64,000 nucleotides of DNA from NCBI GenBank assembly GCA_951406725.2, contig OX597825.1, forward strand, positions 21,452,001-21,516,000, read 5' to 3'. The number at the start of each line of letters is the position of its first letter. Position 1 is the first letter of the stretch. Source of the stretch: Octopus vulgaris. Lineage: Eukaryota. The notes beneath the pieces are model-generated. The model was not told where the DNA came from and did not search any database. It saw nothing but the letters and a program-made list of their open reading frames with translations. Position numbers and translations under genes: made by a program. Shown here piece by piece: positions 8,201 to 13,979 of this stretch.

Positions 8201-8509
8201 CCTACATGCTTATATGCTCTTACTAAGGGTCTTCTGTAATCCGTCTAGCACCGAAAAGGAAGTTACAACTGAGCCATACCATTAATCACTGTACACCTTC
8301 ACGAATATGTATGTATGTATGTCAGTGTGTCCGTACGTATGTTTGTGCGCATGCATGAAGGCTTGTGTGTGTGTGTGTGTGTGTGTGTTTAAGTGTGGGA
8401 AATTTTATTTCCGAAAGTTTCGTTGTCCGTGTCCTTTAGTCCGGTAAATCAATAATTTAAGATATTCCAGATGTAATCGTTCTATTTTTTATTATCATTT
8501 TTCATTAGC

Positions 8510-9085
<576 letters not shown>

Positions 9086-10047
9086 AAAAAAAAGAGCGAG
9101 AATACCTAGGACTACATTAACCAATAGGAACGCGGCGCACATATCTTTGCAATACTATACCATCCTATCATATTTTTCTGGCAGAATCGTTAGGAAGTCG
9201 GTTGAGCTTCTTACCGACATTTCTTTCAGCTTATTTTGCGTTCTGAGTTCAAACCCTGCCGAGGTCAACTTTGAACTATTATCCTTTCGGTCTCGAAAAA
9301 AACATACCAGTGAAGCACAGGGTTCGACGTAATCGAAACGTTCTCTCCACTCAAATATTGATGGGTTTGAATACCGGCTGACAACCGGTGTTGGTTTTTT
9401 TTACGTACCTATAACTTAACGGTTCGACAAAAATTGACTGATAGAATACGACTTAAAAATAATAAGTACTGAGATCGATCCGTTATACTCTTGGGGGTGG
9501 TGCCCCACTATGACCGAAGTTCTGTGAGAGAAACATAGCAGAAGGTAAAAGATAGCATTTATTTGTTCGGCGTAGATTAACTACAGCGAATAAAAGCGAA
9601 GTCTGAAGAAAAGGTTCAACAACGAACGAAATAATAGTTTTATGACGCCTGCGACTATCCCCATTGGAATCTGAGGTTTCATGTCTAATGAAGAAATCAT
9701 AACAGTGTGACAAGAGCAAACTGCTTAAAGAGGTGTGGATTGTTGGATACTAGGAGGAAAAGGGGACAGAAAGGTGTGTAATTTTGGCTATTTTGAAGGA
9801 GCGGCTGGCGGTGGTAGCAAGGTTGTATCACGCAGCAGGGGTCCAGCTGCCGATAGTCTGGTTGCATATCAACTTCCCAAGATTATTTAACATTCTTTCT
9901 TCCGATATTTCATTTGACATTTCACTCAGCTTATTATGGAGTATATGGATACACGAATAAAAACATAGCATACACGGAGAACCACTAACTCGCAAAACAT
10001 TCATTATATATGTATGTATATATATGTGTGTGTATATATATATATAT

Positions 10048-10089
<42 letters not shown>

Positions 10090-10090
10090 C

Positions 10091-10386
10091 AATTGCAGCG
10101 TGGAAGGTGTTTGTAAGCCATTTAAGAAACACACAAAAGCCGTTCGATTCACTTCAACATTTAAGTTTAATTTGTCAAAATATTTTCGTCGCTTTAAGAC
10201 CGCGACCTGTTCACTGACAAAAATCCATGCTGCAAATCCGAGATGCAGCACGGATTTTTGTCAGTGAACAGGTCGTGGATTTTAGCGACGAAAATATTTT
10301 GACAAATTAAACTTAAATGTTGAAGTGAATCGAACGGCTATTGTGTGTTTCTTAAATGGCTTACAAACACCTTCCACGCTGCAATT
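10091..10386. repeat. near-perfect palindrome (about 143-bp arms, 9-nt loop); each arm carries a hammerhead-like motif
   Basis: aattgcagcgtggaagg...atgctgca [aatccgaga] tgcagcac...ccttccacgctgcaatt; (TA)n lies directly upstream and about 60 bp downstream. Confidence 0.95.
10171..10221 (-). ncRNA. type-I hammerhead-like motif, G3-C8 core variant (mirror copy 10257-10306 on +)
   Basis: TTTGTCA-GTGAACA-G-GTCGC-ggtcttaaa-GCGAC-GAA-AATATT-T-TGACAAA; stem I 7 bp, stem II 5 bp, palindromic stem III. Confidence 0.65.
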
Positions 10387-10444
10387 ATTTTCGTTCCAGC
10401 ACGCGATCTCAGATCAAATCACTTGCTATGCGAGTACATCTCCG

Positions 10445-10547
<103 letters not shown>

Positions 10548-10551
10548 TATG

Positions 10552-10940
10552 CGCAGGCATTGCTGTGTGGTAAGGAATTTGCTTCCCAACCACATGGCTC
10601 TGGGTTCAATCTCACTGCGTGGGACCTCGGGCAGGTCTTTTTCTATAGCCACGATCCGACTCGTGAGTGGATTTGGTAGATAGAAATTGAAAGAAGTCTA
10701 TCGTATATATGTATTTATGTGTGTGCGTGCGTGTGCGTATGTGTTTGTTCTATAATCACCGTTTGACAAGCCATGTTGGTATGTTTCTATCCCCGTAACT
10801 TAGCGGTTCGGCAAAAGTGTTCGATAGAGTAAGTACCGGGCTTAAAAATGTACTGCGGTGGATTCATTTGGCTAAATGTTTTCCAAGGCGGTGCTCCAGC
10901 ATGGCCACAGTCTAATACTGAAACAAGTAAAAAATAAAAA
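10552..10940 (+). mobile_element. SINE family A
   Basis: Diverged full-length copy. Confidence 0.8.
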
Positions 10941-12118: not shown

Positions 12119-12210
12119 TAATAAAATAAAAAGAGTAGAAATTGATGTTAATCAATTAAAACTAGTGCCTTAGCATTTTTAAAAATCCGAAGATTAAAAA
12201 TTATGTTACA

Positions 12211-12450
12211 TACAAAATTAAGAGGAATGACCACTAAAGTGGACACCCTGTATGCTAAACATAGACGTCAAATCGCTATTACCACGAAGAATGTGTTCTC
12301 AAGAAAAAAATCTCCGCAAAACGCCAAAATGTAAAAATGTACATTTTTACATTTTTTCTTGAGAACACATTCTTCGTGGAAATGGCGATTGGACGTCTAT
12401 GTTTAGCATACAGTATGTCCACTTTAGTGGTCATTCCTCTTAATTTTGTA
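12211..12450. repeat. fold-back of a dispersed repeat (about 95-bp arms)
   Basis: tacaaaattaagaggaatgaccactaaagtggaca...tgtccactttagtggtcattcctcttaattttgta; related sequence at about 15005-15180 (+); 12125-12214 recurs at about 50080-50180 (-). Confidence 0.85.
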
Positions 12451-12628
12451 TATATTTATATATATATATATATAAACACAAAGGAATTATTTTGGTTTGA
12501 AAACCCCACTAGAATGGGAGAAAGCGCTAATGATCTAAGTGATATGATATATATGTAAAAAATGTAATATATAAATAAATATCTGTAAATATAAACCATC
12601 CGATCTTCTGATTACTTCATTTCTTCTA

Positions 12629-12797: not shown

Positions 12798-12875
12798 TAA
12801 TAATAATGATATTCCTTAAACGTTGTTTCACATCTTTTTCAGGTGTGTTGGGGCAAATGTACCTCTTTACCACAG

Positions 12876-13017
12876 GTATGCGGTGTGTGGAGGAAAGTAC
12901 CTGTCCTGTATCAGCAGTACCTGTGGGACAAACGTGTGTCGATCGTCTTGACGACAGCGCCTCATCCAGACGGCGAAGTCAAAGGCCGAGTTATAACAAC
13001 CAATGATAAACATAAAG
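12876..13017 (+). CDS. chrd: chordin exon (end of CHRD1): VCGVWRKVPVLYQQYLWDKRVSIVLTTAPHPDGEVKGRVITTNDKHK
   Basis: ctctttaccacag / gtgagc; 142 nt, phase 0/1; hallmark VCGVWR.VP and HP.GEV.G. An alternative in-frame start exists at 12843. Confidence 0.93.
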
Positions 13018-13589: not shown

Positions 13590-13979
13590 AAAGCTGGACT
13601 CAAGAGTCGTCTTCGTAGTCATAAAACGAGACAGATGAGTGACAACCTGGCCACTGGTGGTGGTGTAACACACCATACTAATCATATTTGTCGGGCATGT
13701 GGAAGAGAGTGTAATTCGGCAGGAGGACTTAAACAACATGCAAAGGTACACGAAGCCCAGTTACAACTACAGCCGGCTATTACCAGTAAAGGTTTTAGTT
13801 GCCAATTTTGTACAAGACATTGTAGATCTTTAGCTGGGCTAAAATGTCACATTCGATCACAGCACCAGTAACAGTTAAGCTTCGTGCAATGGCCATACTC
13901 GATAACGAGGGGGCAGCCATAATGTATGTATGTATGTATGTATGTATGTATGTATGTATGTATGTATGTATGTATGTAT
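13590..13979 (+). mobile_element. 3' end of an RTE-like LINE with tandem C2H2-type knuckles and a (TATG)n tail
   Basis: Encodes KAGLKSRLRSH...CRACGRECNSAGGLKQHAKVH...CQFCTRHCRSLAGLKCHIRSQH*, then a short 3' UTR and (TATG)n; 5'-truncated at another TATG tract. The CxxCxRxCxSxxGLxxHxRxH motif is typical of LINE ORF2 C-termini. Confidence 0.65.

What the first reader, a model, noticed from the sequence alone, without database searches (positions are those of the whole stretch)
10091..10386. Long palindrome holding a rare G3-C8 hammerhead on both strands
Both arms keep GUGAACA, a 7-bp stem I, a 5-bp stem II and an AAUAUU stem III. The + arm is sense to chordin pre-mRNA, but the 143-bp hairpin would sequester it. 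Inference: a head-to-head (inverted) PLE terminal-repeat insertion; the fold-back may silence the ribozyme and create dsRNA.
Basis: partly seen in the sequence, partly recalled or inferred. Interest (0 to 1): 0.72.

Follow-up and report, generated by a model that had tools for sequence, protein, structure and literature searches.

The report
Head-to-head Penelope stump, swapped-core hammerhead
This palindrome is two short front-end copies of an abundant jumping gene (a Penelope-like retrotransposon) joined head to head in a likely intron, each with a predicted, untested self-cutting RNA whose core base pair is swapped, and the copies' ends likely record the enzyme copying RNA back to its capped start from both DNA strands at once.

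Summary
The palindrome and both hammerhead motifs are real. The unit is longer than reported (10091-10446): the right arm carries a ~59-nt tail. It belongs to a Penelope-like retrotransposon family with an RT + GIY-YIG parent. G3-C8 is not rare here: the family core has 7,674 genomic matches, 96 of the first 100 being G3-C8. Sister families keep C3-G8 in the same fold, and stems and the 3-8 pair covary. Head-to-head pairs are common (16 of 28 sampled loci), and 51 of 55 pairs have exactly one tail. Copies pile up at one 5' base, often with an extra G (825 G versus 126 A), and none of 46 tail-selected arms starts at the predicted cut. Each arm here is 99.3% like other loci but 94.6% like its partner. 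Best reading: both DNA strands primed at two fixed RNA sites, uncleaved RNA copied to the cap, cDNA ends joined. The architecture is known. I found G3-C8 in print only as a lab mutant, but a key paper was unavailable. Cleavage and dsRNA are untested. The scan reported this family before on other DNA.

The parts
10091..10234 (-). Left arm: tail-less copy of the element's 5' end (about +5 to +147), long loop-2 variant
   Evidence: 99.3% identical to L111
10171..10221 (-). Predicted minimal type I hammerhead of the left arm (G3 at 10214, U17 at 10178)
10222..10240 (.). Head-to-head junction: a stuttered form of the recurrent TCC|GAGATG junction; G at 10240 is absent from the parent element's sequence (likely cap-derived)
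   Evidence: 100 exact copies genome-wide, this one included; cap origin inferred
10241..10386 (+). Right arm: starts at the family's dominant 5' base (+1, inferred transcription start), short loop-2 variant
   Evidence: 99.3% identical to L002 and L003
10257..10306 (+). Predicted minimal type I hammerhead of the right arm: G3-C8 core, palindromic AAUAUU stem III, predicted cut between 10299 and 10300
10356..10446 (+). First ~30 codons of the parent's RT/GIY-YIG ORF (ATG at 10356)
   Evidence: the same frame runs on into the ORF in L098
10387..10446 (+). ~59-nt tail, present on one arm only
10004..10090 (.). Left (TA)n-rich flank (target site; a TSD cannot be read)
10447..10545 (.). Right (TA)n flank
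12843..13017 (+). Nearest downstream exon of the likely host gene, CHRD-like
   Evidence: AG/GT ends; Atlas first hit CHRD cluster, score 0.92; no Pfam hit

Best explanation
The palindrome is one insertion made of two head-to-head copies of the 5' end of a Penelope-like retrotransposon RNA, likely formed when the element's enzyme primed both target DNA strands at two fixed RNA sites and the two cDNAs, likely copied from uncleaved RNA back to its capped start, were joined end to end. Shown: family membership, the parent ORF, one-sided tails, the sharp shared 5' end with an extra G, recurrent junctions, and that this copy's arms match different variants. Inferred: that the 5' end is a capped transcription start; that one arm starts at about +147 and the other at about +206; that junctions form by annealing over the imperfect palindrome at the RNA's 5' end; that this copy used two different RNAs. 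The hammerhead is the element's ordinary terminal-repeat ribozyme with the 3-8 pair flipped. It is probably kept by selection in source elements and predicted to need a dimer. In this intronic copy it is predicted to be buried in the hairpin, a passenger.
For: Parent: arm and tail run into an ORF; L092 holds a stop-free frame of 1025 codons with DKSG, YVDD, CxxxCxxC and YIGET motifs, Pfam GIY-YIG above cutoff, RT-type Atlas neighbours at 0.97-0.98. Pairs: 51 of 55 pairs in the three sets not chosen on the tail have exactly one tail (p = 1e-11 against 0.5). Arm 3' ends fall at +142-151 or at the tail end. Of 2,051 copies of the +1 14-mer, 825 are preceded by G, 126 by A, 659 by the parent's own upstream sequence; upstream of the G nothing is conserved in 30 loci. 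In the tail-selected set 23 of 46 arms start at +1..+7 and none within +55..+62 around the cut at +58 (my count). 13 of 72 pairs share the annealed junction; 100 exact copies genome-wide. 18 of 24 pairs outside (TA)n have an 11-14-bp duplicated flank (no chance control). Two RT start sites, extension on both strands and use of uncleaved RNA were shown in vitro for an anole PLE (PMC11167929).
Against: No RNA end, cap or cleavage was observed; the listed runs were contigs and none was on record as RNA. The extra G could be a non-templated RT addition, and in some copies it can be read as part of the partner arm or the target duplication (L139, L149). The +1 position overlaps a good branch point/3' splice site (ACTAAC...YAG), so the end may relate to splicing. 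51 of 72 junctions are of other kinds and 8 have spacers. Most pairs have concordant arms (1-4 discordant of ~55 per site, against 14-28 expected at random), which a single template or fold-back also explains. Samples are small, partly top-scoring hits, and contain at least one duplicated locus (L112/L114).
Confidence: 0.72

Rival explanations
1. Same element, but the palindrome forms by fold-back self-priming of one cDNA or of an antisense template (the model of PMC3846280).
For: A short imperfect palindrome lies at the junction; arms agree at diagnostic sites in most pairs; intra-pair difference 2.3% against 4.3% between pairs (56 pairs).
Against: Fold-back gives identical arms, but this copy's arms are each 99.3% like other loci and 94.6% like each other; loop-2 type differs in 5 of 34 pairs. 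The extra G at a fixed 5' base fits a sense, capped template. The one-tail rule needs two start sites.
Confidence: 0.15
2. The G3-C8 motif is a catalytically dead relic; the fold is kept for another job (protein binding or RNA pairing) or by descent alone. This can hold together with the best explanation.
For: No arm starts at the cut site. PLE minimal hammerheads cleave weakly (PMC4209133). The C3G/G8C double mutant only partly rescues, and cleavage is dispensable for insertion in vitro (PMC11167929). The minimum-energy fold pairs G3 with U17. The G3-C8 switch may be one ancestral event.
Against: The other core positions match those of the C3-G8 sister families, and both sides of the pair changed: 25 C-G and 14 G-C of 41 distinct rows, 2 unpaired (core letters were partly fixed by my search patterns).
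Confidence: 0.35
3. It is a MITE (non-autonomous DNA transposon) with long terminal inverted repeats.
For: Palindromic, high copy number, TA flanks.
Against: Arms vary in length at the centre, ends are asymmetric, 12 of 28 sampled loci are single arms, duplicated flanks are 11-14 bp, and the sequence is the 5' end of an RT gene.
Confidence: 0.02
4. This copy was co-opted to regulate the chordin-like host gene through dsRNA, editing or conditional cleavage.
For: Likely intronic, + arm sense; a very stable hairpin is predicted.
Against: It is one young copy among thousands, with nothing that sets it apart; no conservation or expression evidence was obtained.
Confidence: 0.04

Closest known systems
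EN+ Penelope-like elements with inverted pLTR and one-sided tail (PMC3846280, passages and Discussion read; PMC8557442, passages read)
   Same: Head-to-head inverted 5'-truncated copy, tail on one end only, pLTR holding the first codons of the ORF, (TA)n targets, RT followed by a CX2-5CxxC linker and GIY-YIG (Neptune/Nematis type).
   Different: The tail is ~59 nt, not 30-40 bp; most sampled insertions are only 150-350-bp stumps; duplicated flanks are ~12 bp; a fixed 5' end with an extra G was not in the passages I read.
Minimal type I hammerheads of metazoan PLEs (PMC4209133; results, discussion and a term search of 2 of 3 supplements seen)
   Same: No real stem III, palindromic 15.2-16.2, an extra base between A9 and G10.1, G10.1-C11.1, UH cleavage triplet, located in the pLTR.
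   Different: The core pair is G3-C8 (C3-G8 and U3-A8 are reported there); the extra base is G where their consensus has H; stem I is 7 bp.
Anolis Poseidon PAc in vitro (PMC11167929; main text read)
   Same: Two RT start sites inside the ORF start that define the tail, extension on both strands, AT-rich targets, uncleaved RNA as template; the C3G/G8C double mutant is partly active.
   Different: Different clade; there G3-C8 is engineered, here it is the natural majority form; joining of two cDNAs was not examined there.
LINE-1 twin priming (recalled; only search listings seen)
   Same: Both target strands prime cDNA and the ends join by microhomology.
   Different: L1 gives an inversion of non-overlapping parts; here both primers copy the same 5' stretch, giving a palindrome.

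Membership tests
EN+ Penelope-like element | Single ORF with RT and C-terminal GIY-YIG endonuclease | tested here: met
   L092, 1025 stop-free codons; GIY-YIG 25.4 bits above cutoff 22.6; YVDD and DKSG; Atlas RT neighbours. Pfam RVT_1 itself did not hit L092; L092's own N-terminus is rearranged.
EN+ Penelope-like element | The finding's sequence is part of that element's pLTR/ORF start | tested here: met
   It follows the ORF's 3' region in L092-L095 and L098 and runs into the ORF in L098.
EN+ Penelope-like element | Inverted 5'-truncated copy with one-sided tail | tested here: met
   51 of 55 pairs.
Neptune/Nematis-type PLE | CX2-5CxxC linker between RT and EN | tested here: met
   CQSNCAVC at residue 896; definition from PMC8557442.
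Neptune/Nematis-type PLE | Phylogenetic placement in Neptune versus Nematis | not tested
   No named reference set was fetched and no tree was built.
Minimal type I hammerhead | Core nucleotides with a 3-8 base pair | tested here: met
   U4 G5 A6 A9 G12 A13 A14 A15.1 U16.1 U17 present; the pair is G3-C8 rather than C3-G8.
Minimal type I hammerhead | Stems I and II with covariation; palindromic stem III | tested here: met
   82.9% of 615 cells paired, 8 of 15 pairs change on both sides, slid controls 31-46%. Changes are few independent events between families; outer stem I is weak in sisters; search patterns fixed part of stem II.
Minimal type I hammerhead | Self-cleavage (as a dimer) | not testable with these tools
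   Needs a bench assay; no genomic 5' ends at the cut.
Rfam hammerhead families | Match to a covariance model | tested here: not met
MITE | Fixed symmetric termini, short TSD, no retroelement parent | tested here: not met
Non-LTR retrozyme | Tandem head-to-tail units each with a hammerhead | tested here: not met
   Sampled loci are singles or head-to-head pairs; definition from bioRxiv 10.64898/2026.07.22.740005 (part 1 of 5 read).

The most novel reading that the evidence does not exclude
Thousands of these stumps record the unresolved Penelope mechanism: a dimeric enzyme primes both strands at two fixed RNA sites, copies to the cap and anneals the two cDNA ends, sometimes from two different RNAs held together through the hammerhead's palindromic stem III; and G3-C8 is a natural, working third core pair that standard ribozyme searches miss.
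Probability: 0.3. Interest if true: 0.7.

Novelty: new variant of a known kind. Interest (0 to 1): 0.4.

Why it matters
This copy is ordinary; the family is useful. How Penelope-like elements make head-to-head repeats and one-sided tails is stated as open (PMC8557442, PMC11167929), and this family gives thousands of short, young products with countable rules: one tail per pair, a fixed 5' end with an extra G, a recurrent junction, and some mixed-template arms. A natural G3-C8 core at this copy number would widen hammerhead search descriptors, which missed it here. It would also add an estimated few thousand long hairpins to a genome as possible dsRNA sources.

Tried and rejected
Rfam: no hammerhead hit. 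Sequencing runs: no RNA holder listed on record. Laid contigs show no start sites, no splice joint in the pLTR and no piece spanning this locus, so expression, editing and presence in other individuals stay open; a 9927-10576 joint with a 22-base side is too weak to use. Spliced-leader or shared first exon before the extra G: rejected, no conserved upstream bases in 30 loci. A conserved upstream ORF over the hammerhead: a 19-codon frame exists in this variant, but the 1-base-shorter variant breaks it (read). CHRD family search of the genome found nothing and Pfam missed the 12843 exon, so 'chordin' rests on the Atlas hit and weak VWC hits. One search used a mis-registered structure string and is discarded; one search is the valid count. 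The hammerhead-covering sample cannot test for cleavage products (they would lack the core), so only the tail-selected set was used for that. Lunse et al. (PMC5785218), the paper most likely to list natural G3-C8 variants, was not held. Searches for G3-C8 in print found it only as an engineered change (PMC3884650, PMC11167929; passages and main text respectively); PMC3088659 section 8 lists natural U3-A8 only; supplement 1 of PMC4209133 could not be searched. A search on twin priming or extra G in PLEs gave no relevant listing.

Full report
Observation. The window holds a long inverted repeat at 10088-10389. The arms are 94.6% alike and fold into one hairpin far below all 100 shuffles (z = -32). 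Each arm carries GUGAACA, one extra G, a 5-bp stem II, GAA, the palindrome AAUAUU, U17 and a 7-bp stem I. Rfam does not recognise the motif.

Family. A DNA search with one arm gave 1,394 candidates; the 40 scored were 97-100% identical. A 19-base pattern open at core positions 3, 7 and 8 has 7,674 matches (control 0). Of the first 100 listed, 96 are G3-C8, none is C3-G8 and four are single changes (my count). So G3-C8 is the family's normal state. The host looks like an octopus-type cephalopod; this is recalled from the flanking SINE and matches earlier scan notes, and I did not verify it.

Parent. L005/L061 leads upstream from the arm through a ~1-kb repeat-rich terminal region to the end of an ORF. 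Searching that fragment found longer copies. L092 has 1025 stop-free codons with DKSG, YVDD, a CxxxCxxC linker and YIGET. It scores above the Pfam GIY-YIG cutoff and has RT-type Atlas neighbours. In L098 the arm and tail run straight into this ORF, whose ATG corresponds to window 10356. This is the layout described for endonuclease-positive Penelope-like elements, with the Neptune/Nematis-type linker (PMC8557442, passages; PMC3846280, passages and Discussion).

Shape of insertions. Four sets of 30 loci were examined, with 7 dropped as repeats of the same locus. In the set taken by position on contig 1, 16 of 28 loci are head-to-head pairs (95% interval 39-73%), which scales to roughly 4,000 palindromes. 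In the three sets not chosen on the tail, 51 of 55 pairs have exactly one tailed arm; one near-duplicate pair (L112/L114) is counted twice there, and in L003 and L011 the tailed partner is only the tail fragment. Arm 3' ends fall at +142-151 or at the tail end. Of 72 pairs, 48 lie in (TA)n, and 18 of the other 24 have an 11-14-bp duplicated flank (no chance control), so a pair is one event.

The 5' end. The 14-mer at +1 occurs 2,051 times: 659 in the parent's own upstream context, 825 after G, 126 after A, the other 441 after C or T. The parent has C or T there. Upstream of the G nothing is shared among 30 loci. I infer a capped RNA start copied to its end. Against this: the G can sometimes be assigned to the partner arm or the target duplication, RTs can add untemplated bases (recalled), and +1 overlaps a plausible 3' splice site. 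In the tail-selected set, 23 of 46 arms start at +1..+7 and none near the predicted cut at +58 (my count). Templates were therefore mostly uncleaved, as for the anole element in vitro (PMC11167929, main text read).

Junction and templates. The RNA's 5' end is an imperfect palindrome, and two cDNA ends annealed across it would give TCC|GAGATG. That junction class is seen in 13 of 72 pairs and the exact form 100 times genome-wide, including this copy in a stuttered form; 51 pairs have other junctions and 8 have spacers. Arms usually share diagnostic variants: 0 of 30, and 1-4 of 55-56, are discordant at five sites, against 13-28 expected at random. Loop 2 is discordant in 7-9 of 48-50 or 5 of 34 by a stricter pattern. 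This copy is one of the mixed ones: the left arm is 99.3% identical to L111 and the right arm 99.3% to L002/L003, while they are 94.6% alike. That argues against an assembly artefact and against fold-back here. Later gene conversion is not excluded.

Is it a hammerhead? A canonical C3-G8 pattern with the same stem II start has 1,734 matches (control 5), in several sister families with their own stem I and stem III. One such family sits beside an ORF 52-63% identical to the parent. In an alignment of 43 motifs (2 window arms, 15 family copies, 26 of the 30 sister loci; four sisters left out, three of them short or with a truncated 3' side), 82.9% of cells pair, 8 of 15 pairs change on both sides, and the 3-8 pair is C-G in 25 and G-C in 14 of 41 distinct rows. 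These are few independent events, my patterns fixed part of the core and stem II, and outer stem I is poor in the sisters. All 17 G3-family rows have U17, whereas 23 of 26 sister rows have C17. This fits avoiding a G3-C17 trap (suggested by a passage in PMC3884650), which is inference. Activity is untested. Published minimal PLE hammerheads cleave weakly and as dimers (PMC4209133), and the engineered swap is partly active (PMC11167929). I found no natural G3-C8 in print, but PMC5785218 and one supplement of PMC4209133 could not be seen.

Host context. A VWC-like exon lies ~25 kb upstream (L130 4503-4629; E = 0.014), a CHRD-like exon at 12843-13017 and VWC exons near 56.7 and 57.7 kb, all on +. 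An intron of a chordin-like gene is likely, though a genome-wide CHRD search found nothing. Nothing marks this copy as functional, and read data were uninformative.

Earlier scan notes describe the same family on other DNA, including two-template pairs and two start sites. I read them after reaching these readings, and they are not independent support.

Verdict. Real feature, known architecture, variant core. Interest 0.4: an ordinary copy of a family that makes two open questions testable, namely how Penelope palindromes form and whether G3-C8 is a working natural core.

Noticed in passing
window 12207-12454: A second, unrelated palindrome with 103-bp arms (94%) and a 42-bp centre next to (TA)n; no hammerhead core pattern found in it. 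MITE-like or another retroelement stump.
   Followed up: partly
L061 9313-9336; L093 7399-7422: A strong branch point and 3' splice site (ACTAAC...TTTCTYAG) ends on the family's +1/+2 bases; no spliced copy was seen.
   Followed up: partly
L092 2342-8265; L094 1660-6387; L061 5803-9480: Kilobase-scale versions of the same head-to-head structure that include the ORF; L061's copy has an internal RT-to-EN deletion and a mariner-like insertion.
   Followed up: partly
L167-L196: Several sister hammerhead families with C3-G8; L171 has this family's GUCA/UGAC stem I and U17 but the canonical core, a candidate closest relative before the flip.
   Followed up: partly
L099: An older pair with tails on both arms and a G3/G8 mismatch, the only two-tailed pair among 73.
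   Followed up: no
window 13598-13921: A 3' fragment of a LINE-like element with two C2H2 zinc-finger-like motifs between (TATG)n runs (family label recalled).
   Followed up: no
window 8503-9093, 10546-10939: Copies of a common SINE-like repeat flank the insertion (label recalled).
   Followed up: no
window 12843-57808: Only one CHRD-like exon was picked up by my simple exon scan in a gene with several VWC exons; the gene model is incomplete.
   Followed up: partly
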